Program-made: the position numbers and the translations under genes
From: Escherichia coli
GTDB taxonomy: Bacteria > Pseudomonadota > Gammaproteobacteria > Enterobacterales > Enterobacteriaceae
Direction: 5' to 3' (one strand)
Length of the DNA: 64,000 nucleotides
NCBI RefSeq assembly: GCF_003790525.1
Contig: NZ_CP033635.1
Part shown: positions 4,781-22,671 of the stretch, in pieces
How the letters are laid out: each line of letters opens with the position of its first letter
Position numbering within the stretch: position 1 is the stretch's first letter
The notes under the pieces: model-generated
Database searches by the model: none
What the model was told of the DNA's origin: nothing
Seen by the model: the letters and a program-made list of their open reading frames with translations, nothing else

Positions 4781-7700
4781 CAGGCGCTCTCCTTATCTTG
4801 TGCAAAGAACGCCCAGGCCACTTTGTAGTCGTCTTCGCGATCCGGCTTGATAAACGGTGCCTGCCAGGTGACGGTACGGCGCTCGCCTTCGTCGCTGCGG
4901 GTATAGTCATCAAAGGTAACGCTGACGGTACCGGTTTGCAGATGTTTGACATCATCCCAGCCGATGGCTTGATCGGTGCAGTCACCGCCGGTCCAGTCCG
5001 GGCTGTCGACGTTAAAGACAAAGCCGTTTTTCAGGTCAGCTTTACGCGCGGTACGAGGCAAGCCAACGCCCACCAGCCCTTTGCTTGGGGTAAAGATAAT
5101 GCGACCGTTTTGATCGTACCAGGTGTCCGCTTCGTACTGGCGCATCACCGGGAACTGAATACGGTAGATGGCGAGTAGTTCTTCGAGGGTTAGCCCCAGC
5201 GCCTGCGCCACCAGCACGTCGATTTCCACCAGCGCCTGACGGCGGCTGTAGTCGGAGCGTAAGGCGCAGTTACGCTGCCATTCTGGGGTCAGATTGGTGA
5301 AGAAATCCTGGGGGAGCTGTGGGAGATCGCGGCTCCAATATTGTATTTTAAATTCTGAGGAATAAATGGAACACCACAATTTTTTATAATGCTCTGTTAT
5401 ACTAACCAAAGCCATCGACCTTGCATGTAAAGAGGCTCTAAACTTCTCATTACTTAATAATGGAAGTTGATTAACTAATGACTGATTCGCATGCCCCATG
5501 CCAGTACACTTGACTCTATAATCTACGACAATGGACAAAGACATCGAAAAGAAATCAAGTAAATCATAGTCATGTTTAAAAATAGTGCTTAGACACGTAT
5601 TAATATGAGAAATACCGGGAGGTATTATAGTTGCGATGAAAGTTCGTTCAGAAGTTGAACCTATCATTTCCCGATTAACAAATCTATAGCCATTAGTCAC
5701 AGGAAAGACATTACCATCCCAAGAAACTGTCGGAATTCGATTTAGAAAATCGGAATACTCGCAATTAGGAATATAATTAACCCTAGGCATATAATTATCA
5801 GGAATAGTCATCAAATCAATGGAGTCATAGTCACTATTTAATTTACATAAAGTCCGTGGCGTTTTGTAATAAGCATTCCCCACAAAGAAATGTGGTCCAG
5901 ATAATATCCATTGTGAAATTCCAGAGGGGAATTCCGTTTTCCTTTTAGTTGTACCATCTCTTTGAGCAAATGTTTCATCAAACATCACTGTAGAATAATA
6001 ATTATTTTTTATTGAAGATAGTTTTTTTGATTTAACATCAAATTTACGTAAAACTTCCAATAATTGTACTGTATGTAAAGCTGGAAGCCTTGCGTGCAGT
6101 GCAGGTGTTGAATTATCATCAAATATCCCCGCAAACAAACGTAACTCATCAATAGTAATTGTTAATACTCTTGATTTATGGGGTGATATATTCCAATTTA
6201 TTTTCAGTTTATCCCCATTGTAAGATTCTTCCTTGATACCAGGAATTTCCCCTTGATTATCATGCAAAATACTTGAATCTATTGTATACACAGAGAACAA
6301 ATTTGACATGTGTGTAAATGAAGGCGATTCTTGCAATGGACCATAAATATTAATACTAAATGTTGTTGCATGATGAACATCGGGAAAAAGCCCTAATTCA
6401 TTTTGAAATTGATAATGGTCACGCAAACGGCAGTAAATTTTGGCACGAAGTTCCCCCGCCTTGCTATCATCATAAACTCCATCAGGGTGCAATAACCCTG
6501 AAACACCATGTTCAGAAATAAGTCGCCATGAGACTGGTAAAAAACATTTATATAGATTTGTTTTTTGCCCTAACAAGCATGAAAAATTTTGCTGACTATT
6601 TAGATAGTTCTGTAATCCAACGGCAGATTCAAACTCACTTCGCCATGCATCTTCTAATCCATAGACTCGTGCAAAAGATTCTTCTCGGAGAGAAGATATA
6701 TTGGCAGCGCTAAGATTGTGCAGTACAAGCTCAGGTTTATAATCTCCCAATATTCCGCGTTCTTCCCATACAACTTTTAGCCACGGCGGGTTTCCGAGCA
6801 TCAGGTCAAAACCGCCGCGCTCGGCAAACAGGTCGCAGAACTCCAGATCCCAGTGGAAGAAACGGTACTGCTTTCTCAGGGCATCGACAATCGCCAGACG
6901 CGGCAAATGACGGAACAACACCTCGGTTTTCAGACGACCTGCGCCGGAAAACAGTGAAGACTCTTCTCGCAGCAGACCTTCTTCGGCAAACAGATCGCCG
7001 GTGGTGTGCTCCGCAACTTCAGTGACTTTTTCCGTGATTACAATCCCGTCGAGCAGGGTTTCAATCTCAAACAACCAGGTGCCGCGATCCGGTAGCTCAT
7101 CGGCTTTGTCGATCGGCCAGAACCACAGCGCGCACCAGTAGTCCATCACCCAACGCAGCTTCTGGTAGGCACTGTTATCTTCAAGACGACCACTGAAGGT
7201 TTCATCTTTACTGCTCAGCGAAGAACGCGTCTGCTCGCTGTTTTCTGCCGGCCACACCGGGTAGCTGTCGGCGGTTTTCAGACGTTCTGCTTTAAGTTGC
7301 TGGCGATAGGTGTTCCACAGAGCTTCCACCTTTTCGCTGATACGCTGCACATCAGCAATCTCATGCCCGGCAAAGCTTTTAATAAACTCTTTGCGCCAGC
7401 TGTCCAGGGCTTTGAAGTCATCCGGATAACGCTGCTTAACGGTTTTATCGCTGTAGTTAGCCATACCGCCGTCGGGCAGCAGGAAGTGAAAAATCTGCGT
7501 CTCTTCACGCGGCGTGTTCATCGCCAGTTCGACCGGCTCGCTGTTAAGCCAGCTCGGATCTTTGGCTTTTTTGTAGGTCAGTTCACTCTTGTTGAACACC
7601 TGACGGCGCGCGCCCACCAGCGAGTTACCGCAGTGCAGCTGGTAACCAAACCACGGTACAAAGGCATCGCCACTGATGGCGTTCAGCCACAGCGACACTT

Positions 7701-9702
7701 CCGCCAGTTCCACCGCCACCGGGTTTAAGTCCACGCCGAAAACGTTGTTGTCGGCAATGTACATTTTCACCCGCTGTAACTCCTGGGTGTAACGATCCTG
7801 CGGAATACGGCGACCTTCCGCCTGCTGCTTGTGGAACAGATACGCTTCCGCCAGCTGGTTGATGGCTTCGTTAAGGAACGCCGCGCTGCCCATCGCCGGT
7901 TCGCACACGGTGAGGTTTAAGATGGCATCAGCTTTAGCGTGCAGATCGGTAATCGGATCAATTTGCTCTTTAAACAGTTCTTTCAGGGCATATTTAACCA
8001 GTGAGCGGGTCAGCACTTCCGGGGTGTAATAAGAGGCAGATTTCTCACGGTCGCGCCCGGCCATACGGTAGATAAAACTGCCTTTGCGGTGAATGCGCAG
8101 ACTGCCGTCTTTCTCGTAGACCTTCTCGTCTTCGTGGTATTTGCCAATCTCATCCTTACTGACGAAGTAACCCGTCTCCAGCTCGTTAAACTCTTCCCCG
8201 GCTTTCTTCACCTCGTAGAGATCTTCGCTGGCGAAGAATCCGCGATAGGAGAGCAGCGCCTCATACACCGCACCCAACTGGTTGATACCCAACTGGCGAT
8301 AAGAAATACGTCCGCGGCGGTTAAAGCGCCCTTTGCCCGGGCGGCTTAACGACATCGCCTGGATAATCTGTTGCAGGGTTTCGTTACGGAATACCACGCG
8401 GTTAAGAATGCGCGTGTTGTTGGCATCAAACAGATGACTTTCCAGACGCGGGACGCTGAACTGATGACTATGGATGGTGATCCGGTCGCCGCTCTCCAGG
8501 TCACTCTGCATTTTCACGCCGCCGTTGTAGCCTTCGCGCACCAGTTTAAACAGCATATTCAGGCTGTCGTGGAAGTAGCGCCCGTTGCGATCTTCTTCGC
8601 TGGTCAGCGGGATCATCTCCAGATCGCGCAACGTTTCCAGGCTGTAACCTTGCAGATAGGTTTTGGCTGTCATTGGCGCATAACCCAGCTCCGGGCGCGC
8701 TTCAATGTAGAACAGGAACAGCAGGCGGTACATGTAACGCAGACATTCGCGGCTCAGTTCATCCGGGTCCACCGCACGGTTACCGGTATAGTTTGCCAGG
8801 CCACGGTCGATCAGATAATGCATCGCTTCGTTGCCCAACAACTCTATGCTTTCGCGCAGGGCATATTTCAGATCTTCCGAAACACCAAACGCATGTTTGT
8901 GCGAATTGTCATCCAGCGAGTCAAGATATGGTGCCCCACTGCCCGGCAGCAGCGAATCTTTATGTAGCAACACTGCCGTCGCTTTCAGCGTATCCGTTTC
9001 ACGACGACTTAAAATCTCTTCAAAATCAAAACGTAGCAGACGGTTTTGCGCCCACTTAGTACGGTCCAACAACAATAGCTGACGGTTACCGAGCAGCAGC
9101 ACAAAACGCGGCGGTTCATTTTGGGTGAAGACCGCCGTAGAGAGCAGATCCTGCCAGCTGCGATATTCACCGTTGGCTTTTTTGCGCAGGCTGTCGCGCT
9201 TATGTTTGTCGGTATCCGCCGGGAATTGCGCGGTCAGTAAGGAGAGCGCCAGCGGATCCAGCGTTCCTTCTTCCTGATCGTGTGCTTCAACAATCCACAG
9301 CCACGGGCTACCGTCAGTGCTGTTGTAACGCGCCAGTACTGGCAGTGGTGTATCGTCATCCAGCATTTGGATCTGCGGCGTAATTTCGTAGCCCAGCGCC
9401 TTTAACAATGGCTGCCAGCGATTACGTTGATCGGCCAGACGCTGCGGGATCTGACGCTGTTTTTCGTGCTCGGCAAGTTTGCGGAAAAACTCAGTCGCCA
9501 GACTGTTAAACTGGTTCCACGGAGCGCGGTATCCCGGCTCTACGTCTTTGCCCTGTTCACGAGCGGCACGCTCCGCTTCACGCGCTGCATTTTCCTGGGC
9601 TATCCAGGGTTCCAGCACATCGCGGATATCACTGGTGAATACCTCACCCAAATAGTGGTTAGAGTAAAATTCGTTTTCGTTATTAATACCGACCAGCGCC
9701 AT
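4780..9702 (-). CDS. drmMI: N6-adenine DNA methyltransferase, PglX/type IIG-like (DrmMI-like)
   Basis: 1640 aa ORF with an AdoMet-binding-like motif (CEPAMGSAAFLNEA), the PglX-type motif GVDLNPVAVELAEVSLWLN and the catalytic motif LGNPPW. Start lies 2 nt after the upstream SNF2 stop, suggesting translational coupling. Confidence 0.7.
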   Translation of the reverse strand: MALVGINNENEFYSNHYLGEVFTSDIRDVLEPWIAQENAAREAERAAREQGKDVEPGYRAPWNQFNSLATEFFRKLAEHEKQRQIPQRLADQRNRWQPLLKALGYEITPQIQMLDDDTPLPVLARYNSTDGSPWLWIVEAHDQEEGTLDPLALSLLTAQFPADTDKHKRDSLRKKANGEYRSWQDLLSTAVFTQNEPPRFVLLLGNRQLLLLDRTKWAQNRLLRFDFEEILSRRETDTLKATAVLLHKDSLLPGSGAPYLDSLDDNSHKHAFGVSEDLKYALRESIELLGNEAMHYLIDRGLANYTGNRAVDPDELSRECLRYMYRLLFLFYIEARPELGYAPMTAKTYLQGYSLETLRDLEMIPLTSEEDRNGRYFHDSLNMLFKLVREGYNGGVKMQSDLESGDRITIHSHQFSVPRLESHLFDANNTRILNRVVFRNETLQQIIQAMSLSRPGKGRFNRRGRISYRQLGINQLGAVYEALLSYRGFFASEDLYEVKKAGEEFNELETGYFVSKDEIGKYHEDEKVYEKDGSLRIHRKGSFIYRMAGRDREKSASYYTPEVLTRSLVKYALKELFKEQIDPITDLHAKADAILNLTVCEPAMGSAAFLNEAINQLAEAYLFHKQQAEGRRIPQDRYTQELQRVKMYIADNNVFGVDLNPVAVELAEVSLWLNAISGDAFVPWFGYQLHCGNSLVGARRQVFNKSELTYKKAKDPSWLNSEPVELAMNTPREETQIFHFLLPDGGMANYSDKTVKQRYPDDFKALDSWRKEFIKSFAGHEIADVQRISEKVEALWNTYRQQLKAERLKTADSYPVWPAENSEQTRSSLSSKDETFSGRLEDNSAYQKLRWVMDYWCALWFWPIDKADELPDRGTWLFEIETLLDGIVITEKVTEVAEHTTGDLFAEEGLLREESSLFSGAGRLKTEVLFRHLPRLAIVDALRKQYRFFHWDLEFCDLFAERGGFDLMLGNPPWLKVVWEERGILGDYKPELVLHNLSAANISSLREESFARVYGLEDAWRSEFESAVGLQNYLNSQQNFSCLLGQKTNLYKCFLPVSWRLISEHGVSGLLHPDGVYDDSKAGELRAKIYCRLRDHYQFQNELGLFPDVHHATTFSINIYGPLQESPSFTHMSNLFSVYTIDSSILHDNQGEIPGIKEESYNGDKLKINWNISPHKSRVLTITIDELRLFAGIFDDNSTPALHARLPALHTVQLLEVLRKFDVKSKKLSSIKNNYYSTVMFDETFAQRDGTTKRKTEFPSGISQWILSGPHFFVGNAYYKTPRTLCKLNSDYDSIDLMTIPDNYMPRVNYIPNCEYSDFLNRIPTVSWDGNVFPVTNGYRFVNREMIGSTSERTFIATIIPPGISHINTCLSTIFKHDYDLLDFFSMSLSIVVDYRVKCTGMGHANQSLVNQLPLLSNEKFRASLHARSMALVSITEHYKKLWCSIYSSEFKIQYWSRDLPQLPQDFFTNLTPEWQRNCALRSDYSRRQALVEIDVLVAQALGLTLEELLAIYRIQFPVMRQYEADTWYDQNGRIIFTPSKGLVGVGLPRTARKADLKNGFVFNVDSPDWTGGDCTDQAIGWDDVKHLQTGTVSVTFDDYTRSDEGERRTVTWQAPFIKPDREDDYKVAWAFFAQDKESA

Positions 9703-9704
9703 GA

Positions 9705-12563
9705 TTAACCCTCCGCTCCGGTGATAACAGCAATTACCTGAATGTAGGGTTCTTTTTCAGTCGTCATGGTGTCCTCAATCCATTCGATATAGCTGTCAAA
9801 ATTGTGTTCGATTTCGCGTTGTCTCTGCTCTTTACGGCTCTGCTTAACTGACAATTGCTGTTTGTTATCGGCAAAATCCAGCTCAAGTTGGCTCAACTGC
9901 CGCCCACGCAAAACGTCCAGCTTTTGCAGATGCTCATTCAGTTGCTGGTTAATGTGCGTTTCAAACGCATTCCGATCATGGATGAATACCTCCCGGGCAT
10001 GAGCAATAGCCGCTTCCAGTAAATCCTGCTGGCGCTGGTGATTACGATCTTTACCGCCGCTGTTAGTCAGCTTGTTACTCAACTGCGGATGACGTTGTAA
10101 AAACTCAGCAAATGGCTGACTGCCGATTAGCGATTCACGGTTAAAGCTCACCACTATCCACGGGTTCACCATCGGATGTGATTTACGGTTCGGGAATAAC
10201 CCGGAAAGAATGAAGTGATCTTCATCGGGTTCAAGCAGGTATGGCAGACGGATAACCGGTGCCTGATGACGACCAAAAGCCGAAGAGATTTTATCGTCCA
10301 GCCACTGCACTACCGGGTTGATTTGCCAGAGATACTGCACATCGGGCCAGGCATGTTGCTCACCGCGAGCGCGTGCAATCGCGTCGGTGATGACGGTTTT
10401 ATCCTGACTTAAATAGAGCTGCCAGTTCTCCGGCGCGATTTCAGGCGGTAGCTGATTGAAGCGGCGGCGTAACTCCTCCGGCGCCACCAGCGACAAGGTA
10501 TTATCAGGCAAGGTTTCATACTGGATAGTTTGACCACTGGCTTTCAGGTAACCCAATGCTCTTTCGCAGTACGCCTGTTCGCTGGCAAACAAGCTGGTGT
10601 CTGTTTCGGTGACCATTGAGGCATCGCTGGAAACCGCACTGCATATTTCGCCAAACAGATCATGTTCGGCGCTTTCCGAGACGTTGCTGTTCAGCAGTTG
10701 ATCAAACAGGCTGGCACCATCATCCTGCATCATGAACTCTGCAACCTGCTCTTCTTCCTCTTCCTGGGTAAATTTGCCGGTAAACTCCGAACTGTCCCCA
10801 ATGTTCTTCTGCGCCTGTTCGTCTTTGTTGATCAACACTTCCAGTACGCGCATATCGCCATTGATCTGCGGTTCGCTGGCCTCGGTAAGCAGATAGCGGA
10901 TTTGAGGCTGATGTTTTTGCCCATAGCGGTCAATACGCCCGTTACGTTGCTGGAATACCATCAACGACCACGGAATATCAAAGTGAATCATTTTGTGGCT
11001 AAGGTGATGCAGGTTGATCCCTTCAGATGCCACATCCGAACAAACCAGAAGACGCAACGGCGACTGCGTTTTACCAAAGGCTTCTACGGTTTCCATCAAC
11101 ACCGTATCGCCCTGATCGCCGCGCAGCGTGGCGATCTGATCATCTTTCAATTTCAGATCCGCTCGCAGTTGCTGTTCGAGGAACTCCAGCGTTTTAATGC
11201 TTTCAGTGAAGATCACCAGGCGATCTTCCGTGTTATTGGCTTTCCAGGCGAGGTCTTTTCGGATGGTGTCGAGCAGCAACTGGTATTTGCTAAACTGGCT
11301 GGCATCAATGTTATTCAGCGCCAACAGCAATGACTCCAGTTCGTTGATCTGGCTCTGGCTATTATGATCTTTACGGCTCTCAAGACGCTTCAGACGATTA
11401 GCCACTACGCTGGCACACGCCATCGGGCTGGAAAATAGCGCTTTTTCGAGGGTTATCTTGAACAGACGACCTTTGTTAGACTGGGCCTGTTCATCGTCAT
11501 CATCACGGAACTGACTCTCAACCAGGCGACGGTATGCTTCTTCTTCGGCACCGGATGCCAGGCGAGTCAGTTTGACAATATTGCGCTCGGGGAACTCGCC
11601 GGACATCTGATCTTTCACGTCTTTTTTGAAGCGACGGACAACCAGATTTTTATCGGCAAAGTCGGCGTATTCATACTCTTTCGGGTTGGCGATCGCCGTC
11701 GGGTCAAGCATGTTCATCAGGCTGGCAAAACTTTCAGCCTTACCATCATGCGGCGTCGCTGAAAGCATAATCAGCGTATCGCTACGCCCGGCGAGCAGTT
11801 TTGCCAGTTTACTGCGTAACGAACTGGTTCCACGTTCTGCGACGTTATGGGCCTCATCAATGACAATAATATCCCACCAGGCATTTTCCAGATGGTGACG
11901 ATATTCAATGTCTTGTTTCAGCGTATCGATGGAGATAATGGTCTTGTCAAAATAGTGAAACGGGTTGTGGTTGGTAGGGATGCGGTTACGCACCTTTTGT
12001 AAACCAGCAGAATCCAGGCGGGTCAATGGGATCGCAAAACGGCTCCAGAACTCCTTCTGGAATTGTGTCAGCATCGATTTAACCGCCAGAACCAGAATAC
12101 GTTTTCCGCGCCCACGACGGATCAGCTCCGAAACCAGAATACCGGCTTCCAGCGTTTTACCCAGACCGACAGCGTCGGCAATGAGTATCCGCTGGCGCGG
12201 CTGTGCCAGAGCCATCCGCGTAGGGTCGAGCTGAAACGGCATGGAATCCATCGCCGCCAGATGACCAAAATGGACTTTACTGTCTGTCGGTACGCGTTGG
12301 CGTAACTGACTTTCGATATACAACTGCGCCGCCTGATAATTGGCGGATTCATCTTCCACCAAATGCGTTTTTGCGGGATCCAGGATCTCTACTTTTTGTT
12401 CCAGTTTGGTCAGAAATAACCCTTCTTTACCGCGCACAAGCTCTGAAATACCATCGCAGGTCAGCAAATACCCACCATCACCACTGTCATCCGCCCGGCG
12501 AATACGCCATTCGGCATCACGAATAACCACCCGCATACCAGGTGCATAATTTTGCTTATTCAT
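9705..12563 (-). CDS. drmD: SNF2-family helicase (DrmD-like)
   Basis: 952 aa ORF with motif I ADAVGLGKT, motif II IIVIDEAHN and the C-terminal helicase motif QRNGRIDRYGQ. First gene of a three-gene minus-strand operon. Confidence 0.65.
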   Translation of the reverse strand: MNKQNYAPGMRVVIRDAEWRIRRADDSGDGGYLLTCDGISELVRGKEGLFLTKLEQKVEILDPAKTHLVEDESANYQAAQLYIESQLRQRVPTDSKVHFGHLAAMDSMPFQLDPTRMALAQPRQRILIADAVGLGKTLEAGILVSELIRRGRGKRILVLAVKSMLTQFQKEFWSRFAIPLTRLDSAGLQKVRNRIPTNHNPFHYFDKTIISIDTLKQDIEYRHHLENAWWDIIVIDEAHNVAERGTSSLRSKLAKLLAGRSDTLIMLSATPHDGKAESFASLMNMLDPTAIANPKEYEYADFADKNLVVRRFKKDVKDQMSGEFPERNIVKLTRLASGAEEEAYRRLVESQFRDDDDEQAQSNKGRLFKITLEKALFSSPMACASVVANRLKRLESRKDHNSQSQINELESLLLALNNIDASQFSKYQLLLDTIRKDLAWKANNTEDRLVIFTESIKTLEFLEQQLRADLKLKDDQIATLRGDQGDTVLMETVEAFGKTQSPLRLLVCSDVASEGINLHHLSHKMIHFDIPWSLMVFQQRNGRIDRYGQKHQPQIRYLLTEASEPQINGDMRVLEVLINKDEQAQKNIGDSSEFTGKFTQEEEEEQVAEFMMQDDGASLFDQLLNSNVSESAEHDLFGEICSAVSSDASMVTETDTSLFASEQAYCERALGYLKASGQTIQYETLPDNTLSLVAPEELRRRFNQLPPEIAPENWQLYLSQDKTVITDAIARARGEQHAWPDVQYLWQINPVVQWLDDKISSAFGRHQAPVIRLPYLLEPDEDHFILSGLFPNRKSHPMVNPWIVVSFNRESLIGSQPFAEFLQRHPQLSNKLTNSGGKDRNHQRQQDLLEAAIAHAREVFIHDRNAFETHINQQLNEHLQKLDVLRGRQLSQLELDFADNKQQLSVKQSRKEQRQREIEHNFDSYIEWIEDTMTTEKEPYIQVIAVITGAEG

Positions 12564-12642
12564 CGGTTTTTCTGTCTATTTGGGGCAGTGGCGGTAACGT
12601 CATCCTGAAAAATGTGGCGCGGCACACTGCGATAAAAAAGAG

Positions 12643-12667
12643 GGCCTTAAAGATATCATGAAGGCCC
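12643..12667 (-). terminator. Candidate intrinsic terminator between the druE-like gene and the SNF2 operon
   Basis: Perfect 7-bp inverted repeat GGGCCTT-N12-AAGGCCC, followed on the minus strand by CTCTTTTTTAT. Confidence 0.4.
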
Positions 12668-12786
12668 CCGGCAAAGTGACAAAATGGGAGGGAATGCGCA
12701 TAATTTGCGCATGATTTTCAAACAAAAATTATTAAAAAGTGAGCTGGGTCAACTCCCCTGGAAGATATCCTCAGGGGAGCAATTAT

Positions 12787-15700
12787 TTATCCAGCGATAA
12801 TATAACTCCTAAGGTCATTACCCGGGGCAACAGCTCGCGCTCGCGTGTTTGCCAGCCGTTCAACTTGCTGCGGTACTCGTAGAGCAAAATCAAAGAAGGT
12901 GTCTTCAATACAGCGCCAGTAGCTAAGCCCCATGTCGAGCAGGACATAATGCTGACTGCCATCGCTGAAGGTGACTGTCAGTTCTCGTCCATGCTCCGTA
13001 CTCTGGTTATCCCCCGTTAACCAGCTAATTGCTCCCAGCCACGCTGGCCCCAGATATCCTTCTTCAAGTAAAGTGGTCACAACCTGCTGACGATCTTCCT
13101 CATTAAGCCACGCGTTATAGAGAGCGTCGTGTTGGCGAGAGTTGTAATCCAATTTTTTGACGCAAACAGTGAGGCTGGCGCGTTCCGCCATTCCCTGTTC
13201 AACCAGCTCAGTTAAGATTTCACCTAACAAACGCGCCGTGAATGGGCTATTAAGATAACGATCGCTGTACTCAACATGCGTTATCTCTTTGTGGCGGGTA
13301 AATGCCTGCTTCCAGCCAGCGTGCTGTTGCGTGACTAACGACCAGAAACGCGAACCAAAACCTTCCAGCGGCCCGTCCAGTTGTTCGCAGAGATTGATGC
13401 GCACCGCCCCGGTGGGTAAGGCGGGCAGTAAATCTTCTGCACTTAAGATCTGACCCAAGAAGGTTTTTCCGGACGTTCCTTTAAGTGTCACTACTGGTGA
13501 AGACGCACTTTGTCCCCATAATTCACCAGGTGCAACGGTAGCGCTGTCGTCTGCGGCCCACTGTTGGCTTTGCCCTTCGCGAGTCACCTGCGCAAGCCAG
13601 CGTCCCTTTCCTTGCATGAGTTGCGCAGTGGCAATGGATTTCACTTGTAAGCGTCCTCCCGGCATCGCCGCCAACGCGGAAAGCTGATGTCTGGAGCTAT
13701 CAGTTAAGTTTGCCAACGGCGTGGCCACCAGCAACTCAACATGCCCACCGGAGGAGGCAAACTGGAGCAACTCTTTAAATAATGGCCATTGGGCAAAATC
13801 CCACTGTTCCTGCGGCCCCGCAAGAACCAGCGAGCAGGAGTCATAAATCTCGCTGTTCAGGCATTGCGCAATACGTAAACTCAGCGGGTTAGTTTCAACC
13901 CGGCTACCATCGCCGAAGTACTGATATTCTGGCGCGAGGTTAAGTCGCTGCAACCGTACATTGGTAAGCAGGGTTAATGCATGGTGACGATCTAATCTGT
14001 TGACATAATGCTGACTGTCGTAGCTGAGCAAGCAGTGGTGACAGAATTTATCGCAACTGCAATCGAGCAATTTTCTGGCGTAATTAAAGACATCAGCCCA
14101 ATGGTCGATCAATTGCACTGCATAACCTGCACCACCCGCATTATTGTCGTAAATGAAGATGGAATATCCGGTATAGCCATTGATATCGCGCGCTTGCTGC
14201 GTCGTCACGCCCAGCTCAGTATTTTCGATACCCAATTTATGCGCTAACCCTTCACGCAAAGCGACCGCAAGGGATCGCGCGGCAACCTCATCACGGATCA
14301 ACAGGCCATTATCATCATTGAGTTGCAGCTCAACCATATCTGTACGACTGCTATACCCCAACCACAGATCTTTATGCACATGACCGTGGCACAATTTATT
14401 GCTCCCCTGACGATCGTTACTGCCCCCTCGCAACAGGTAATGCGTATTTTCCCTCTCTGGGTTCTTAAGATTTTCAGGGGTACGCTGGGGTTGATTTTGA
14501 GATTCTGCCCGACCACATGAGAGGCAAATTGCGTAGCCGTGCCCAAATTCCCCTTCACTGAAGTGGAACAATTCCCCACTATGGCTAAAACGGTAACGTC
14601 CTAGCCCAGCATCGGGTAAAGAAACCCACACCGAAGACGGTACAAGAACACGTGGATCTTTCCAGGGAAGTTGTGCAGGCATGGATACATCATTATGCGC
14701 CTGATAACGGATATCTGTCGCAAAACCAACAGGCTGTAAATAACGCTTCACATCAAGTTGCTGTATATCCGCTTTGCAGTGACTACATTCGACAGGACGG
14801 GTAGTACTGGTTGCCCCCGCACCACATTTACGACAATGCCAGAACCACGGAATATGATGATCGCCTGACAGCTCCTGCCCGCTGGCAAGTACCTTGCCAA
14901 GCATAATGCCCGAGGAACGATATACTTTTCCGCCCAATACCACATCTGCACCTGGAGCATACTCGCGTAATGCTGTAGGCAAATCACGGCTGGGCAATTT
15001 TTCAATACGACGAGAAAAGCTTTCTCCCCCTTCATTAGGGTCAGCCTGAGTGGCTTTTATTGCGCGACGTTTTTCCAGCTCATCTGCCGTCAGATAATTG
15101 AAATTGACGACGCCAACCGGGAAACCATGCCCCGGCAGGAACGCTTCACTAATGAGTTTAGAAAACAGATATGCACCGCGATAATCACGAAGCTGATAAG
15201 CGATGGCTTTACCTGCTGGCGTTTCTTCCCACGCGCTGTTATCCGCCTTCAACGCTTCGATATTTTCCAACAGTATCGCAAGTTGGCTTCTCCAGCGGAT
15301 ATCAACCTGCTGCATCATTGCTTGTGTGCGGGTCAAGAGCTGGGTTGCCGTCAATGACATCAGGACGGTTCCCTGAGTAAGGCGTTTAAGTTTATCCGCC
15401 AGCTGATCGGCCTGGTTATTTAACCAATGGAGAAAACGAAGACACTGGCTCTCATCACCTTCAAAGAACCATTTGCAACTCAGTTTTGTCGCATCAGGAA
15501 CTTCAGCTCGTAAAAACAGACCTAAAACCAGGGCATTAACATGTCGTTGAACAATACTGCTGCTCCCAAAACGAACCCGTGGCGCACTGGCAGTAGTGTT
15601 GAACGCCCAGAGGGGGTCTTTGAATACCTCCATTCCATGCGCCGTGTTTTTACATAACGTAATGGCAGCAGATGCACTCTCTCCACGTCGACCCGCGCGG

Positions 15701-18700
15701 CCTGCACGCTGCAAATAATTTGCCGGAGCTGGAGGAACGTTGTTCATTGCCACCAAACTCATACCACCAATGTCCACCCCCATCTCCATGGTCGTGGAGC
15801 AGTTCAGCACATTAACTTTGCCTGACTTAAATTGTTTTTCATTAAACTGGTTCTGCTCAGGCGTTCTCTGCGCAGAGTGTTCCTCCAGACGATACCAGCT
15901 ATCTTTCAGGGCCAGTCGGTCGCTGCGAGTAGACCATAATCCTTCCTCGCGGGCATGTTGAATCAGCGCATTACTTTCCAGCCACTCCAGACGTTCTTCT
16001 CGGGCGATTTCTCCACCACCAGACAAACGCCAGTGACGTACAGGAAGCTCAGGCATTTCAATCAACACTGCTTTTTCAGGTGCAATTTCTTTGCTACCCG
16101 GCAAATACGGAGAGTATCCCAGTAACGTGACGTCTAACGCACGTCGAGTATAGGGGCAACGCCACACTTGCTTTGGACTGTAAAATTCAGCTTGTTGTTT
16201 AATATCCAGCTGATAACCCGACTCAAACTGACGTAAGCAGGGTCGAATTGCATCCCAGACCTCAATCATTAAGTGGTTAACTAACGATTTCCAGTGAGCC
16301 TGCTCAGGTTGTATTGCCGGAAAGACTGCAATTAATAGCTTAATGACCCGGTTATAATGGCGATCGCGTATTTGTGGCCAAAGTTGATCACGTTTCTGCC
16401 CTTTGTTTTTTTTATCTGGACCCTGGAGCATTTTTACCGGGAAACGAGCCCCCATCCAGCGAGGGTATTGCTCGTTTTCGTAAAAAACGGCACTGTTTTC
16501 ACGTATAAAGAAATCAAGAGTAATCTTCAATAAATTACGCCATTCCGCTAATTGCTTATCGGGATCGGGTAATAATGTCTTCCAGTCCTGCGGGCAGGTT
16601 GTAACTTTATCAATAAATGGATAGTGAATGGCTACCAGACCCAGACTTTCGAGGGTCCAGGCATTTTTAGGGCGGCGACCAAACTCACTGTATAAACAAA
16701 AATCTGCAAACTGTTGTTTAGTAAGATCAAGCCCAGACAATTCTTTAAAACTGCCTCTCATTCTATCGGCAAGGTCCACACTGCCAACCAGCTGTTCAGA
16801 CAGTGTTTGCCATGACATGGTTTTCTTCTGCTGATTGCCAGAGTTAGCCTGGAGTATTTGCATCGCTTCAGCATGATCCGGGCTTAAGGAACTCACCATC
16901 GGCTCGATAATTTTAAGTGCCTGAATGTCCGCCGGGCTAAGCTCTTCATTAGCAACCATCGCTTTTTTCAGCGCGTCAATAGAGTTTTTTAAAGGAAGGA
17001 TAGAAAACTGGGTAATAAAACTCTCTAACAATGCGCAGTGTGCCGGGCTGAGCTTTGCTGATGGCTCATTAATATTGGCCAACTCCTGGTAACAAAGAGC
17101 TCGCAACGTCGCTTTATCGGCATCCTGCTGTAAGCGGGCAGAAATGCGGGCAGTGCCCTGACGTGAATCCGTAAAGGTGAGCAGACGTCGACCATTAAAC
17201 GGTCCTAACTGCTCTTCTCTTGTCTGCGGTAATGGTGAAAACTCCAGCAGAGTAGGAATAATTTCATTTAAAAAAAAGGGCGCGCCAAGTCGAAGCGGAC
17301 GGAATAAAGGATTATTTTTTCGTTGGGTGTCACCACAGCAAACACAAGCAAAGGAATTATTACGTCCCTCACCTCGAGATTCCGGTCTTAACAGGTTTAT
17401 TTCATAGTGCTTTTGCGCTTCACTATCAATTTTCCCCGCCGTCGTTTCTTCCAGAGAAATGATATATTTTTCACCATCGATCGCAATCAGACGATCAAAT
17501 TGAGAGTTATTGTCTAATTCGTCGTTGTCTTCATCTTCAGAATAAACATCTACATCAAGAGCAAATTCATCCACTTCGGCAGCGGCGGGTTGCGCTACCA
17601 ACCAGTTCGTTCCATCACCGCGCACCTCCTCTTTGGCAGACAAATAAGCTGAACCACACCCGGAGCAACGTAAAACTTCAAATACCGGCGCACCACAGTC
17701 ACAATATTGGCGCTGCTCAAACCATACCTGACCAAATGGCCAGTCACTCTGATTTAATTCATGCGCTTTATGTGAGCATTGTTTGTTTGAACATGCCCAT
17801 AGACCCGCCAGTGTTCTGATAAACCCATGCATACGTAATGGCGTAAAAGCCAGTTCACCTTCTCGCGATCTCGCCATTAGGTCGAGGAGTTGCAGTAACT
17901 CACGGTGATTAATATCTGGCCAGGTTCTTCTGGCAACATTGAGCAACTCACTCAAACGTACTGCCTGCCGTCCGGGATGAGTTAACGCCTGACGCAATTG
18001 CTGGGCCACACGGTAATGACAAAGCTGTTGGTAAAGATCCTGAGGGCTCAAAGATTTAAGAGAAGTTAAAGATGTGGGATATTCATGACGAATCAGCGAC
18101 TCCGATACCCGCGGTATTTGTCGATAGCCGCGAACCACTTTGACATCACGTTCTGTAACGCCCGCGAGATCAGCGACAAATTTAGCAAGCTCCTTATTAC
18201 CTTCAGGAGAGTCTTCACCAATAGTGGCAGAGGTCGCGATAATCTGCACAGGTTTATCTGTGCCCGGTCCAACATTGAAAGCCTGCATAACACGACGTAA
18301 AAGCAGCGCTAACTCAGCAGCCTGAGAACCAATATAACTATGGGCTTCATCCAGGACGATATACTTTAACATCCCCTGAGACTTTTCGATGATTGGGGCA
18401 TCTTTACGACGAATCAGCATATATTCCAGCATGGTGGTATTCGTCACCATGATGGAAGGTGGTGCTTCGTAAATGGCTTCCCGACTCAAAGCTTGTTCAG
18501 GTACTTTCAACTGATCTTCCTGAACTTCGTATTTGGTATGCCGGGTTTCGCCATTATATAGCGCGAAGCGTATTTTCCCCTTAAATCCGCGCGTCCATTC
18601 GCGAAGCCGCTCCTGTTGGCTGTTAATTAATGCATTTAACGGATACAAGAAAATAGCTTGTGTCCCTGTTAGTGACTGACGGGTCGATTTTTGCTGACGA

Positions 18701-19110
18701 ATAAGATCTTCCAGAACCGGTACCATAAAGCATTCTGTTTTCCCGGATCCCGTACCGCTGCTCACTAACAAGGATTTTTTGTCTTCCAGAATCGTTCGCC
18801 ACGCCGTAAGTTGATGACGAAATGGCACCGGCGCTTTGCTCAATGCATCAACCAGCGGGCTGGAAATTAGCTTGTCCCGCAAATCCTCCATTGTTTCATC
18901 CGCAGGCATCCAGCCGAACGTGCTTTCGAATACCGGGTCTGCAAGCAGTGACCCCTCCTGACCGGGAGGCTGGAAATATTGTGATTCCAGATAATGAGTC
19001 AACGACTTGCTCCGCAATGCCAACTGACTTACCACCGACCTCACCGCGCGCTGATGAAGCTGATTTAGAAGTGGCGCATAATGCAGTTGCTGAACGTCCA
19101 TCAATGACAT
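12787..19110 (-). CDS. druE: DruE-like large helicase (Druantia type III-like)
   Basis: 2107 aa ORF with Walker A SSGTGSGKTECFM, DEAH-type box VLDEAHSY and a C-terminal Cys-rich region (CLSCG..., CSCDKFCHHC). Overlaps the upstream gene by 10 nt. Confidence 0.6.
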   Translation of the reverse strand: MSLMDVQQLHYAPLLNQLHQRAVRSVVSQLALRSKSLTHYLESQYFQPPGQEGSLLADPVFESTFGWMPADETMEDLRDKLISSPLVDALSKAPVPFRHQLTAWRTILEDKKSLLVSSGTGSGKTECFMVPVLEDLIRQQKSTRQSLTGTQAIFLYPLNALINSQQERLREWTRGFKGKIRFALYNGETRHTKYEVQEDQLKVPEQALSREAIYEAPPSIMVTNTTMLEYMLIRRKDAPIIEKSQGMLKYIVLDEAHSYIGSQAAELALLLRRVMQAFNVGPGTDKPVQIIATSATIGEDSPEGNKELAKFVADLAGVTERDVKVVRGYRQIPRVSESLIRHEYPTSLTSLKSLSPQDLYQQLCHYRVAQQLRQALTHPGRQAVRLSELLNVARRTWPDINHRELLQLLDLMARSREGELAFTPLRMHGFIRTLAGLWACSNKQCSHKAHELNQSDWPFGQVWFEQRQYCDCGAPVFEVLRCSGCGSAYLSAKEEVRGDGTNWLVAQPAAAEVDEFALDVDVYSEDEDNDELDNNSQFDRLIAIDGEKYIISLEETTAGKIDSEAQKHYEINLLRPESRGEGRNNSFACVCCGDTQRKNNPLFRPLRLGAPFFLNEIIPTLLEFSPLPQTREEQLGPFNGRRLLTFTDSRQGTARISARLQQDADKATLRALCYQELANINEPSAKLSPAHCALLESFITQFSILPLKNSIDALKKAMVANEELSPADIQALKIIEPMVSSLSPDHAEAMQILQANSGNQQKKTMSWQTLSEQLVGSVDLADRMRGSFKELSGLDLTKQQFADFCLYSEFGRRPKNAWTLESLGLVAIHYPFIDKVTTCPQDWKTLLPDPDKQLAEWRNLLKITLDFFIRENSAVFYENEQYPRWMGARFPVKMLQGPDKKNKGQKRDQLWPQIRDRHYNRVIKLLIAVFPAIQPEQAHWKSLVNHLMIEVWDAIRPCLRQFESGYQLDIKQQAEFYSPKQVWRCPYTRRALDVTLLGYSPYLPGSKEIAPEKAVLIEMPELPVRHWRLSGGGEIAREERLEWLESNALIQHAREEGLWSTRSDRLALKDSWYRLEEHSAQRTPEQNQFNEKQFKSGKVNVLNCSTTMEMGVDIGGMSLVAMNNVPPAPANYLQRAGRAGRRGESASAAITLCKNTAHGMEVFKDPLWAFNTTASAPRVRFGSSSIVQRHVNALVLGLFLRAEVPDATKLSCKWFFEGDESQCLRFLHWLNNQADQLADKLKRLTQGTVLMSLTATQLLTRTQAMMQQVDIRWRSQLAILLENIEALKADNSAWEETPAGKAIAYQLRDYRGAYLFSKLISEAFLPGHGFPVGVVNFNYLTADELEKRRAIKATQADPNEGGESFSRRIEKLPSRDLPTALREYAPGADVVLGGKVYRSSGIMLGKVLASGQELSGDHHIPWFWHCRKCGAGATSTTRPVECSHCKADIQQLDVKRYLQPVGFATDIRYQAHNDVSMPAQLPWKDPRVLVPSSVWVSLPDAGLGRYRFSHSGELFHFSEGEFGHGYAICLSCGRAESQNQPQRTPENLKNPERENTHYLLRGGSNDRQGSNKLCHGHVHKDLWLGYSSRTDMVELQLNDDNGLLIRDEVAARSLAVALREGLAHKLGIENTELGVTTQQARDINGYTGYSIFIYDNNAGGAGYAVQLIDHWADVFNYARKLLDCSCDKFCHHCLLSYDSQHYVNRLDRHHALTLLTNVRLQRLNLAPEYQYFGDGSRVETNPLSLRIAQCLNSEIYDSCSLVLAGPQEQWDFAQWPLFKELLQFASSGGHVELLVATPLANLTDSSRHQLSALAAMPGGRLQVKSIATAQLMQGKGRWLAQVTREGQSQQWAADDSATVAPGELWGQSASSPVVTLKGTSGKTFLGQILSAEDLLPALPTGAVRINLCEQLDGPLEGFGSRFWSLVTQQHAGWKQAFTRHKEITHVEYSDRYLNSPFTARLLGEILTELVEQGMAERASLTVCVKKLDYNSRQHDALYNAWLNEEDRQQVVTTLLEEGYLGPAWLGAISWLTGDNQSTEHGRELTVTFSDGSQHYVLLDMGLSYWRCIEDTFFDFALRVPQQVERLANTRARAVAPGNDLRSYIIAG

Positions 19111-22100: not shown

Positions 22101-22460
22101 TCTTATCTTTCTTTTCCAGTAGCGAATGCCATCATTAACCAGCTTCTGTCGATGAACATACGGAACTTTCCAGTCAATAGAATCTAAAATTGTGTCCCAT
22201 TTAGGGTGTCCGACCGTATGAGTCCGGCGGATAAACTCTGCGGCATATATGCTAAATAGAACATCGCTATAGGAAATGAATATCGTTCTTGGATAACTAC
22301 GGGGGGCATATGTACGCAGTAGTTCTGCCAAACTTTCGTACTCTGTATCAGTACAACGGTAAGCATATAACGCCCGTCCATCAGCTCCGGATAATGAACG
22401 GCGACTAAAAAACATGTTAAGCCATTGCAAAAGTGGGTTAACTGGAGTTTTCACAAGCAA
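19101..22460 (-). CDS. druH: Large protein of unknown function, DruH-like (partner of DruE)
   Basis: 1119 aa ORF immediately upstream of and overlapping the DruE-like gene, AT-rich. Assignment is by size and context only; no catalytic motif recognised. Confidence 0.45.
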   Translation of the reverse strand: MLVKTPVNPLLQWLNMFFSRRSLSGADGRALYAYRCTDTEYESLAELLRTYAPRSYPRTIFISYSDVLFSIYAAEFIRRTHTVGHPKWDTILDSIDWKVPYVHRQKLVNDGIRYWKRKIRNLGQASGYLHTLACEGGLPIRMIENESGYLITYFRRIYQALRGQASQYPAAKIAQELGDTIPVTMQNELVYEIAGEFCETLCRLLSEHPPQSSDPVSALRKLSPDWHLQLPLVLPEANAAEIVRRLLSQSSEIRSASSLQVERIWVDVDDSWYCDARFRFPATMRTEQLTSLFECNIQPEQTRLIISGKWRNGGARLAMLSRYEQQDWRVELLPIAMQKLSGADAMAEISLSLHEGPILLGHTIPKGGYELTEELPWVFEAMNESESQLKLVGMGSVSSRLNALFISLPKNSHLDISGEGEFDIPRLLKNSERSLTKISGVFSVVLHDGAVCTIRTQQLYDSAIEYYIKSTEVELVKSDYPVHRAWPKIGWKKDLQYGIVPEKELFWRSIRSGNNAWYSVASKMPKGQIEVRRIVNDEVLFSGKVVVLPADFDINIIPESAQQGIIMLSGITDTRIDKYSNNEKVTLKSDYSQNECAIYYNSSEMLENTVDLRVSWKDGSNLKLLLPKPVSGGRFVTHDGSVHFDGVASIAHLHGIDAELLTISCAGRGYLNIELLDENPVAEKFRYLHADLPLLSGCNDKLKQISLYENYNLLNAMLACAWSSNSTLCVDFYSDRFGKDKATLSIKRYDGSFIEHDQGLLVDIKNSVVFPANRIDELVVDAISLKDPGLHISLLKKDEFAYDLSALNVQDSPWLIVGKLDGTARIAPVIKWGLPVLQTNDLLLNALCEADSEQRKKYFNELIFEIDNNPLQNYCCLLTEYIKKYKMNNGLSLLDLDLFRGISSNYRVVVQLLISSCLSGDSDTIYDIQEELPFSWGWIPVSIWKDVFQKCWAYLEKQINDKTLALHILQPFIAFMNHRAHIDRRLAPIANMLLTYSKLLPAGCNVLPTVSREQFNEAKQMLLRNPDSFGRISIFPKELWSSAITPELKSVFNKLWIKNKYHSRLEKRFNLMLVAALLTQKDNNLIHQLSALFEFHYQQAPQQLGVIYQYYFEQAGVCH

Positions 22461-22671
22461 CCTGCCTTCCTTTGATACAATTCGTAACAGGTTACTATCA
22501 TCATAAAAAAGCTCAACCCGATGAACTCGCTAAAAATGAGACAAATCATTTATATCTCGAAAAAACTTGTTACAATCATGAGCGCTACACCGAACTTAAC
22601 CATATAAATTATGTGTGTTTTGTTTATTTTTTAAACAATTACAACTATCCATTATTTACACAGGTATCAAA

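What the first reader, a model, noticed from the sequence alone, without database searches (positions are those of the whole stretch)
12564..12786. Structured intergenic region between the Druantia-like and DISARM-like operons
Seen in sequence: two hairpins whose loops share the sequence AAGATATC (CTCCCCTG-gaagatatcc-TCAGGGGAG at about 12753-12779, and GGGCCTT-aaagatatcatg-AAGGCCC at 12643-12667, the latter followed by a T-run on the minus strand). There is also an 11-bp direct repeat TGCGCAT(A/G)ATT at 12695-12705 and 12707-12717, each containing the palindrome TGCGCA. Inference: this is a terminator for druE plus a regulatory or operator module for the downstream operon, suggesting the two systems are separately controlled.
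Basis: seen in the sequence. Interest (0 to 1): 0.4.

Follow-up and report, generated by a model that had tools for sequence, protein, structure and literature searches.

The report
Terminator-promoter junction between two defence operons
The 223-base gap between the Druantia III genes (druHE) and the ARMADA II genes (armABCD) of an E. coli defence island holds the end signals of the first operon and the start signals of the second; it is an ordinary regulatory junction, and the motif shared by the two hairpin loops appears to be coincidence.

Summary
The window is E. coli SMS-3-5. All genes here are on the minus strand: druH-druE, then the 223-nt gap (12564-12786), then armABCD (ARMADA II, DISARM-related).

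The reported hairpins, T-run and 11-mer repeat are real; two coordinates are off by one.

Comparison with about 40 variants of this gap from other genera and metagenomes splits it into modules:
- **H1 (12753-12779)** is a conserved RNA hairpin just after the upstream operon. Four of its base pairs show compensatory changes, and every one-sided change gives G·U.
- **H2 (12640-12669, plus U6)** looks like a canonical terminator, but only in the E. coli lineage. Elsewhere its 5' arm is gone.
- **The H2 "loop" sequence is invariant** as TGnTAnnnT, an extended -10 promoter motif. I therefore place the arm promoter inside H2, followed by an ~80-nt leader with a conserved stem.

A published plasmid carrying exactly this gap plus armABCD gives phage defence, which fits a promoter in the gap.

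The shared AAGATATC is lineage-specific; 41% of shuffles contain some repeated 8-mer.

The ATGCGCAT repeats are non-random (0.25% of shuffles) but only partly conserved, and their binding factor is unknown.

No transcript-end data could be obtained. Interest is low.

The parts
12787..19110 (-). druE (DruE3, 2107 aa). The stop codon TAA is at 12787-12789. This is the last gene of the upstream druHE operon.
   Evidence: ORF list. PADLOC DruE3, E = 0. RefSeq annotation.
12753..12779 (-). H1: a GC-rich hairpin 7 nt after the druE stop codon (8-bp stem CUCCCCUG/CAGGGGAG; -16 kcal/mol here, -19 in most E. coli). It is the conserved 3' hairpin of the upstream operon.
   Evidence: RNAalifold on 18 variants gives 8 pairs, 4 of them with both-sided compensatory changes; all one-sided changes give U·G.
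12731..12755 (-). Weak second hairpin GAGUUGACCCAGCUC (12741-12755) followed by ACUUUUUAAU. It is terminator-like and shares GAG with the 3' arm of H1. It contains the invariant TTGAC (12748-12752).
   Evidence: Terminator scan hit. The same hit occurs in Enterobacter wuhouensis L009. Variants CAGCUC/UGGCUC/UAGCUC/CAACUC keep the pairing. TTGAC is invariant in 18 of 18 variants.
12694..12716 (.). Two copies of the palindrome ATGCGCAT (12694-12701, and 12705-12712 as TTGCGCAT), 11 bp apart. They can be read as a tandem 11-mer or as a 7-bp inverted repeat. On the preferred TSS they lie at about -49 to -67. This is a candidate factor-binding site.
   Evidence: 0.25% of shuffles. The promoter-proximal copy is semi-conserved (CTGCGCATTAC, TTGCGAGAT); the distal copy is variable.
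12640..12669 (-). H2: a 9-bp hairpin GGGGGCCUU / AAGGCCCUC with a 12-nt loop. With the U6 tract at 12634-12639 it makes a canonical-looking intrinsic terminator. It is present only in the E. coli lineage and the L093-type lineage.
   Evidence: dG is -15.1 (E. coli type), -15.8 (L093 type) and -8.5 (Klebsiella plasmid), against 0 to -1.9 kcal/mol in hyp/Siccibacter, Serratia, L097, L103 and L105 types.
12650..12658 (-). TGaTATCTT: a candidate extended -10 element of the armABCD promoter, lying in the H2 loop.
   Evidence: TG and T-A-n-n-n-T are invariant in all 21 distinct variants, including two Aeromonadaceae, while position -13 and the middle of the hexamer vary. In contig L103, homology to the gap begins at this motif.
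12655..12682 (-). Alternative register of the same promoter: TTGTCA-16-CATGAT (9 of 12 matches).
   Evidence: Promoter scan and top PWM hit in the E. coli type. Not conserved in relatives.
12643..12648 (-). Predicted armABCD transcription start, inside the 3' arm of H2. Transcripts that begin here cannot form H2.
   Evidence: Inferred from the -10 position. No experimental TSS was available.
12564..12642 (-). armA leader, about 80 nt. It has a conserved CUCUUUUUUAUCGCAGUG start, a stem P1 (GCAGUG at 12625-12630 pairing with CACUGC at 12585-12590), and an unpaired A-rich ribosome-binding region AGACAGAAAAACCG with a poor Shine-Dalgarno match.
   Evidence: P1 appears in the MFE fold of 5 of 6 lineages, and the Serratia type keeps it through G:C to A:U and U:A to U:G changes.
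9705..12563 (-). armA (SNF2/DrmD-like helicase, 952 aa), the first gene of ARMADA II. armB is at 4780-9702. armC runs off the left end of the window.
   Evidence: naming from 10.1101/2025.09.22.677730.

Best explanation
The gap is a composite transcriptional junction made of two separable modules.

**Module 1 (about 12726-12786)** belongs to whatever operon lies upstream. It holds a conserved GC-rich RNA hairpin (H1) and a weak hairpin followed by a U-run. Together these end and/or stabilise the druHE mRNA.

**Module 2 (about 12564-12725)** belongs to armABCD. It holds:
- a possible factor site (two ATGCGCAT palindromes one helical turn apart);
- an extended -10 sigma-70-type promoter (TGaTATCTT, 12650-12658);
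- an ~80-nt leader with a closing stem and an open, A-rich ribosome-binding region.

In the E. coli lineage only, the promoter spacer has become complementary to the start of the leader. The resulting hairpin H2, with its U6 tract, should stop any RNA polymerase arriving from druE at 12634-12639. Transcripts that start at the arm promoter begin inside the 3' arm of H2 and so escape termination. Druantia III and ARMADA II would then be transcribed separately in this strain.

**Shown here:** the structures, their conservation or loss, and the module boundaries. Sufficiency of the gap plus armABCD for defence is shown in the literature.

**Inferred:** the exact transcription start, actual termination at H1 and H2, and any protein binding.
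For: **Gene identities and strand.**

**H1.** It forms in all 18 variants (-10 to -22 kcal/mol). Four of 8 pairs show compensatory changes, and one-sided changes give only U·G, which fits selection on the sense-strand RNA. It follows DruE of five sequence types and also an unrelated 743-aa gene.

**Module boundaries.**
- Strain U1 keeps the H1 module after the 743-aa gene although ARMADA is absent.
- L097 and L119 keep only the arm-side module.
- L093 is a mosaic of types.

**H2.** Stable only in E. coli-like lineages, although the underlying sequence is conserved everywhere.

**Promoter motif.** TGnTAnnnT is invariant in 21 variants, including Aeromonadaceae. L103 and L097 have no co-directional upstream gene yet retain this block.

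**Published construct.** Primer FN1701 anneals at ATAATTGCTCCCCTGGGGATATC, the first bases after the druE stop codon. pARMADA is therefore the gap plus armABCD, described as 'native promoters', and it protects BL21-AI (10.1101/2025.09.15.676423). From the primer tails and the known lacZ-alpha sequence, I read the insert as antisense to the vector's lac promoter.

**Deletion strains.** Deleting druHE from start codon to stop codon leaves ARMADA active in ATCC 8739, and the druHE deletion mutant of EDL933 likewise keeps ARMADA-dependent protection.
Against: - No 5' or 3' end mapping was available. The one Cappable-seq data set for EDL933 is truncated in the held copy.
- The promoter has no convincing -35 element.
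- The consensus scan finds no promoter at all in the L009, L011 and L103 gaps.
- A rough PWM ranks other, lineage-specific sites as high or higher, such as TTGACC-16-TATCGT after H1 and TTTACA-16-TAAATT in L097.
- The H2 loop is 12 nt, longer than typical terminators, and the scan's 3-8 nt loop rule missed it.
- H1 is not followed directly by a U-tract, so it may be a stabiliser rather than a terminator.
- In the plasmid experiment, read-through from the vector is not excluded.
- The TTGAC that is invariant after H1 is not explained by this model.
Confidence: 0.6

Rival explanations
1. Leader attenuator. The arm promoter lies further upstream, for example TTGACC (12747-12752) with a weak -10, or near the ATGCGCAT repeats. 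H2 would then sit inside the arm leader as a premature terminator that tunes or conditionally blocks arm expression. The conserved block CAUGAUAUCUUUAAGGCCCUCUUUUUUAUCGCAGUG would be an RNA element rather than a promoter.
For: - TTGAC is invariant after H1.
- TTGACC-15/16-TAATTT/TATCGT score as well as the preferred site in the E. coli and Siccibacter types, and TTTACA-16-TAAATT is the top hit in L097.
- The block downstream of the -10 is as conserved as the -10 itself.
Against: - H2 is missing in most lineages that carry ArmA at 88-95% identity, so attenuation cannot be the conserved role.
- No -10 partner for TTGAC is conserved; the Serratia type has none.
- L097, L103 and L125 lack TTGAC.
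- The short ORFs that run into H2 (18 and 33 codons) have no Shine-Dalgarno sequence and are not conserved; the ATG is lost in L010-type gaps (my reading of the sequences).
- No Rfam family matches at threshold.
Confidence: 0.2
2. Operator model. The two GATATC-centred near-palindromes (H1, H2) and/or the ATGCGCAT pair are DNA binding sites for a dimeric regulator that co-controls the two defence systems.
For: - H1 and H2 are 26-27 bp near-palindromes centred on GATATC, with 15 of 20 identical positions.
- AAGATATC occurs 6 times in the window against 2 expected, with two of the six in this gap.
- The ATGCGCAT pair is non-random. It is spaced 11 bp apart at about -50 to -65, a typical activator position.
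Against: - The GATATC loop of H1 exists only in the E. coli lineage and even varies within it (GAGGATATC, GGGGATATC, GGAGATATC, GGGGATAAC).
- H1 evolves as a stem: compensatory and G·U changes, with a free loop.
- Some repeated 8-mer is found in 41% of shuffles.
- No regulator gene is annotated in the island next to these operons.
- The distal ATGCGCAT copy degenerates in other lineages and is absent from the Serratia type.
Confidence: 0.12
3. The gap is a repeated or mobile element, a recombination site, or a small-RNA gene, rather than operon punctuation.
For: - A 74%-identical copy lies after a different gene pair next to IS remnants.
- The gap is mosaic between lineages.
- There is a weak Rfam hit to suhB/mmgR (23.4 bits, E = 0.033).
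Against: - There is one copy per genome in 534 E. coli genomes (highest 2), and apart from 7 diverged copies it always lies between druE and armA.
- A covariance model of the H1 module finds one hit per locus and nothing else in the window.
- The 20-mer search finds a single site.
- The Rfam hit is far below the gathering score of 41 and consists mainly of a hairpin plus a U-run.
- The diverged copy is explained by the same junction with another upstream cassette whose ARMADA part was lost.
Confidence: 0.04
4. There is no separate control. druHE and armABCD form one six-gene transcript, and the hairpins only modulate mRNA stability or are neutral.
For: - All six genes are co-directional.
- One MAG has only ~26 nt between druE and armA.
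- Serratia-type gaps lack any U-tract terminator.
Against: - ARMADA II occurs mostly without DruHE across phyla.
- It is preceded by divergent genes in L097 and L103.
- It works when cloned with only this gap.
- H2 plus U6 in this strain has canonical terminator features.
Confidence: 0.1

Closest known systems
Rho-independent (intrinsic) transcription terminators of Enterobacteria
   Same: H2 has a GC-rich 9-bp stem, dG of about -15 kcal/mol, and a U6 tract immediately 3', all downstream of a stop codon on the coding strand. The small hairpin at 12741-12755 plus UUUUU also fits the loose consensus.
   Different: The H2 loop is 12 nt, where 3-8 is usual. H2 is not conserved outside one lineage, and it overlaps the next promoter. 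H1, the conserved hairpin, has no adjacent U-tract.
Extended -10 (TGn) sigma-70 promoters (established E. coli promoter class; from general knowledge)
   Same: TG at -15/-14, one free base, then TAnnnT. The invariant positions are exactly those that matter for this class, and there is little or no -35 element.
   Different: The hexamer is weak (TATCTT, TACTCT, TACCCT). The start site is unmapped. Activity of this specific element has not been tested.
3'-UTR stabiliser hairpins, such as REP/BIME-type extragenic palindromes
   Same: H1 is a stable GC-rich palindrome just after a stop codon. It could block 3' exonucleases.
   Different: It is single-copy and does not belong to a dispersed family.
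Direct-repeat boxes of OmpR/PhoB-type response regulators (7-bp repeats with a 4-bp A/T spacer, 11-bp period; from general knowledge)
   Same: ATGCGCA-AATT-ATGCGCA has the same 7+4 architecture and lies upstream of the putative core promoter.
   Different: The sequence matches no box that I can name. Each unit is itself a palindrome. Conservation is partial, and no binding data exist.
The published 'native promoter' fragment of ARMADA II (pARMADA; 10.1101/2025.09.15.676423)
   Same: It is the same 223-bp gap (the O157 allele, 99% identical), used as the only upstream sequence for armABCD.
   Different: The paper does not dissect it. No terminator, promoter or leader elements are described in the four papers I searched for such terms.

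Membership tests
Intrinsic terminator (H2) | GC-rich stem of at least 5-7 bp on the transcribed strand | tested here: met
   9 pairs, of which 6 G-C, 1 G·U and 2 A-U; -15.1 kcal/mol.
Intrinsic terminator (H2) | U-tract directly after the stem | tested here: met
   The stem ends ..CCCUC and is followed directly by UUUUUUAU (U6 at 12634-12639).
Intrinsic terminator (H2) | Short loop (typically 3-8 nt) | tested here: not met
   The loop is 12 nt. The consensus scan, which allows loops of 3-8 nt, did not report H2.
Intrinsic terminator (H2) | Produces 3' ends in vivo | not testable with these tools
   No Term-seq or 3'-RACE data were found.
Intrinsic terminator (H1) | U-tract directly after the stem | tested here: not met
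   H1 is followed by UUGACCCAGC. The U5 run comes 20 nt later, after a second weak hairpin. The Serratia type has no U-run at all.
Conserved structured RNA element (H1) | Base pairs kept through compensatory changes in relatives | tested here: met
   4 of 8 pairs have both-sided changes; the remaining changes give U·G.
Extended -10 sigma-70 promoter | TG at -15/-14 and TAnnnT, conserved in orthologous regions | tested here: met
   Invariant in 21 distinct variants.
Extended -10 sigma-70 promoter | A mapped transcription start 6-8 nt downstream, with activity lost on mutation | not testable with these tools
   The held TSS tables are truncated. The only indirect evidence is the pARMADA construct.
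Canonical -35/-10 sigma-70 promoter | At least 9 of 12 matches with a 16-18 bp spacer at a conserved position | tested here: inconclusive
   TTGTCA-16-CATGAT is found in this window, but there is no hit in L009, L011 or L103.
Dispersed extragenic repeats (REP/BIME/ERIC/MITE) | Many copies per genome | tested here: not met
   Median of 1 place per genome, highest 2. Single hits in the window.
Any Rfam family (riboswitch, sRNA, leader) | Score at or above the family's gathering threshold | tested here: not met
   The best hit is suhB/mmgR at 23.4 bits against a threshold of 41.

The most novel reading that the evidence does not exclude
The gap is a conserved joint at which ARMADA II exchanges its upstream partner module.

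- The partner can be DruHE of several types, or an uncharacterised 1569-aa + 743-aa pair with no detectable homology. A distant relative of that pair sits upstream of a Vibrio ARMADA.
- Each partner ends in an H1-type hairpin.

In the E. coli lineage the joint has additionally evolved a terminator wrapped around the arm promoter, which insulates the two synergistic systems from each other. On this reading, the unknown pair would be a new defence or sensor module that works with ARMADA II in the way Druantia III does.
Probability: 0.3. Interest if true: 0.5.

Novelty: new member of a known kind. Interest (0 to 1): 0.2.

Why it matters

Three practical points follow:
- Knowing that the 223-bp gap carries the druHE end signals, the probable arm promoter and the arm leader helps in designing clean deletions, reporters and expression constructs.
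- In E. coli a terminator probably uncouples the two operons. This affects how polar effects and synergy data are interpreted, for example when a druHE deletion leaves the druH promoter reading towards arm.
- The lineage-specific gain of a terminator around a conserved promoter is a neat but not unprecedented example of how neighbouring defence cassettes become insulated.

As biology, this is ordinary operon punctuation.

Tried and rejected
- **Rfam scan of 12000-13300 at E up to 10.** Only sub-threshold hits (suhB/mmgR at 23.4 bits), judged to be a hairpin plus U-run artefact.
- **Repeat or mobile element.** Single copy; no terminal inverted repeats around the two AAGATATC copies (my reading). 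A covariance model of the H1 module finds nothing else.
- **Shared loop motif as a functional signal.** Rejected on shuffles and non-conservation.
- **Leader-peptide attenuation.** ORFs of 18 and 33 codons run into or through H2, but they have no Shine-Dalgarno sequence, are not conserved, and the ATG is lost in some lineages.
- **uORF overlapping the armA start.** The frame is shared by the E. coli and hyp types but not by the Serratia type. Dropped.
- **Other sigma-factor consensus sequences, checked by eye from memory.**
  - Sigma-32: the spacing is wrong.
  - Sigma-28: GCCGATAA occurs only in the Serratia leader.
  - Sigma-54: none found.
- **Plus-strand promoter-like site GTGACA-17-CATAAT (10 of 12).** The -10 is CATAAA in the common E. 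coli allele, so this is probably chance.
- **Experimental TSS.** The EDL933 Cappable-seq tables (PMC10469882) are cut at about 0.54 Mb in the held copy, whereas the locus is at 5.42 Mb. Searches for Z5899 and ECs5257 found no transcript data. The Druantia and ARMADA papers I searched for such terms contain no mapping.
- **MAFFT plus RNAalifold on the whole leader.** This gave no useful consensus because of indels, so I used per-lineage folds instead.
- **ArmB methylation motif as a link to GATATC or TGCGCA.** No motif is reported.

Full report
**Where we are.** The window matches E. coli SMS-3-5 at 100% identity (NC_010498.1). All relevant genes are on the minus strand, so transcription runs from high to low coordinates:
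- druH, 19101-22460;
- druE, 12787-19110;
- the 223-nt gap, 12564-12786;
- a 952-aa SNF2 helicase, 9705-12563;
- a 1640-aa methyltransferase, 4780-9702;
- a 2113-aa helicase and a UvrD-like helicase, which run off the left end of the window.

PADLOC identifies DruH3 and DruE3 at E = 0, and DrmD-like and DrmMI-like proteins downstream. The downstream four genes have since been named ARMADA II (armABCD). The Zorya II - Druantia III - ARMADA II array on O-island 172 has been studied genetically (10.1101/2025.09.22.677730 and 10.1101/2025.09.15.676423).

**The observation.** Both hairpins, the T-run and the tandem 11-mers are present; two coordinates are off by one.
- On the minus-strand RNA, H2 extends to 9 pairs (12640-12669, -15.1 kcal/mol) and abuts UUUUUU (12634-12639).
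- The 11-mers are two copies of the palindrome ATGCGCAT spaced 11 bp apart. They also form a perfect 7-bp inverted repeat.
- In 2000 dinucleotide shuffles, two or more perfect 7-bp hairpins occur in 1.1% and such a tandem repeat in 0.25%. Some repeated 8-mer occurs in 41%.
- The gap as a whole folds better than its shuffles (z = -3.9 on the minus strand).

The structures are therefore non-random, but the shared octamer is not significant in itself.

**Distribution.**
- The gap is present in 534 of 5426 complete E. coli genomes and on 17 plasmids, as a single copy in nearly all of them (highest 2).
- In 527 genomes it is flanked by druE and armA.
- Seven genomes carry a 74%-identical copy downstream of a different pair of genes (1569 aa + 743 aa), next to IS remnants.

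A scan of 100,044 species genomes with ArmA returned 80 loci. ArmA-ArmB occurs across many phyla, mostly without DruHE. DruHE lies upstream in Escherichia, Siccibacter, Serratia, Yersinia, an Enterobacter MAG, Vibrio, Enterovibrio and one MAG. In Enterobacter wuhouensis, Mangrovibacter and Citrobacter, the complete 1569 + 743 aa pair sits upstream instead, joined to armA by a homologous gap. A DNA-pattern scan of metagenomes added 48 contigs. Together these give about 40 distinct versions of the gap.

**What the comparison shows.**

*H1 is conserved as a structure.*
- Three main stem types occur: CUCCCCUG/CAGGGGAG, CUCCCCCAC/GUGGGGGAG and CCCCCUGCC/GGCAGGGGG. Their loops are unrelated.
- Every one of the 18 variants folds at -10 to -22 kcal/mol.
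- RNAalifold finds 8 pairs. Four have both-sided compensatory changes, and every one-sided change is C to U, giving U·G. U·G pairs only in the sense-strand RNA.
- H1 follows DruE of several types and also the unrelated 743-aa gene. It stays with that gene in genomes that lack ARMADA. It is therefore the 3' module of the upstream operon.
- It is not directly followed by a U-tract. A weak second hairpin plus UUUUU follows in the E. coli and 'hyp' types but not in the Serratia type.
- H1 is therefore at least a 3' stabiliser and at most a leaky terminator.

*H2 is not conserved as a structure.*
- Its 5' arm is replaced in the Siccibacter/'hyp', Serratia, L097, L103 and L105 types, where dG is 0 to -1.9 kcal/mol.
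- The sequence of its loop and 3' flank is nevertheless highly conserved: RTGnTAYYCTTTAA...CTCTTTTTTATCGCAGTG.
- Across 21 distinct variants, including two Aeromonadaceae, the invariant positions are TG, T, A and the final T of TGnTAnnnT. The position between TG and the hexamer, and the middle of the hexamer, vary. That is the signature of an extended -10 promoter.
- In contig L103 the genes upstream are divergent, and homology to the gap begins at this motif. In L097, also with divergent neighbours, homology begins about 100 nt further upstream and H1 is absent.

*Downstream of the promoter lies a conserved leader.*
- Its closing stem (GCAGUG...CACUGC) is kept in the Serratia type through G:C to A:U and U:A to U:G changes.
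- The A-rich ribosome-binding region AGACAGAAAAACCG is left unpaired.

*The ATGCGCAT pair is only partly conserved.* The promoter-proximal copy persists in recognisable form. The distal copy drifts and is absent from the Serratia type.

**Experimental anchor.** In Bell et al. (10.1101/2025.09.15.676423), ARMADA II was cloned 'under its native promoters' into pBeloBAC11 and protected BL21-AI.
- The forward primer FN1701 anneals to ATAATTGCTCCCCTGGGGATATC, which is the first bases after the druE stop codon. The construct therefore carries exactly this gap plus armABCD.
- From the primer tails and the known lacZ-alpha sequence, the insert is antisense to the vector's lac promoter. This is my inference.
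- Deleting druHE from start codon to stop codon in ATCC 8739 leaves ARMADA active, and the EDL933 druHE deletion mutant likewise keeps ARMADA-dependent protection.

These results fit a promoter in the gap. They do not locate it, and they do not exclude vector read-through.

**Mechanism proposed.** druHE transcripts end at, or are protected by, H1 and the following weak terminator. In the E. coli lineage, any read-through meets H2 plus U6. The arm promoter's -10 element sits in the H2 loop, so arm transcripts start at about 12643-12648, inside the 3' arm of H2. They cannot form the terminator, and they continue through the ~80-nt leader into armA. The ATGCGCAT pair, at about -49 to -67, may bind an unknown factor.

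Confidence:
- that a promoter lies somewhere in the gap: high;
- that its core is the element in the H2 loop: about 0.6. There is no good -35 element, the consensus scan finds nothing in relatives, and a rough PWM gives competing lineage-specific sites.

The main rival places the promoter upstream, which would make H2 a leader attenuator. It is weakened because H2 is absent from most lineages.

**What it is not.**
- It is not a dispersed repeat or mobile element.
- It is not a known RNA family.
- It is not a pair of operators defined by GATATC: the H1 loop motif is lineage-specific and varies even within E. coli.

**Limits.**
- No transcript-end data could be obtained. The EDL933 Cappable-seq tables are truncated in the held copy.
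- The TTGAC that is invariant after H1 remains unexplained.
- Separate control is not universal. Serratia-type gaps have no terminator-like signal, and one MAG has a ~26-nt gap.

**Verdict.** The details differ, however. The conserved hairpin is H1. H2 is a lineage-specific terminator built around what is most likely the arm promoter. The shared loop octamer is coincidental. This is ordinary operon punctuation in an interesting and now well-known defence island. Novelty: a new member of a known kind. Interest: about 0.2.

Noticed in passing
L002 12237-19174 (minus); L009/L010/L018 about 811-7745; not in the window: A two-gene cassette (1569 aa + 743 aa) has no Pfam, NCBIfam, PADLOC or PDB sequence match. 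It takes the place of druHE directly upstream of ARMADA II in Enterobacter wuhouensis, Mangrovibacter, Citrobacter and two metagenome contigs. It also occurs in 148 E. coli genomes at the leuX/nan-fim island without ARMADA. It is a candidate uncharacterised defence or partner module.
   Followed up: partly
L016 2334-7861: A Vibrio ARMADA II locus has a co-directional 1182-aa + 660-aa pair upstream. The larger protein weakly matches the C-terminal part of the 1569-aa protein (34% over 95 aa, E = 3e-9). The association may therefore be old.
   Followed up: partly
window 12748-12752 (minus TTGAC): TTGAC immediately after H1 is invariant in all 18 H1-bearing variants, including the much-diverged Serratia type. 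It has no consistent -10 partner, and its role is unexplained.
   Followed up: partly
L093 / L126 (metagenome contigs): The gap is mosaic in these contigs: a 'hyp'-type H1, an E. coli-type middle region and H2 (perfect 9-bp stem GAGGGCCUU), and a 'hyp'-type leader. Recombination breakpoints therefore fall inside the 223 nt.
   Followed up: partly
L005 about 9000-9060 (strain KE50): Downstream of the 743-aa gene, homology to other strains breaks inside the H1 loop. The 3' arm is replaced by nanS-side sequence. This suggests a rearrangement breakpoint at the palindrome.
   Followed up: no
L119 (metagenome contig QZMH01005423.1): Unrelated low-GC sequence is joined to the gap at TTTTTGTTTGAAAATCATGCGCA. 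This may be an assembly chimera or a real junction.
   Followed up: no
window 12676-12704 (+): A plus-strand promoter-like site, GTGACA-17-CATAAT (10 of 12), points antisense into the druE 3' end. Its -10 overlaps the ATGCGCAT repeat and is CATAAA in the common E. coli allele, so it is probably chance.
   Followed up: partly
window 22461-22614: druH and the Zorya II operon (zorA2 from 22615, + strand) are divergent, with only about 150-210 nt between them. This gap must hold both promoters. I did not examine it.
   Followed up: no
RefSeq annotation of O157 genomes (hits H24, H26, H28): DruE is still named 'motility-regulating DEAH-box RNA helicase' in some RefSeq records, following PMC3681947. 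A 2026 preprint reports no motility or fliC effect of deleting druE (10.64898/2026.05.13.724758).
   Followed up: no
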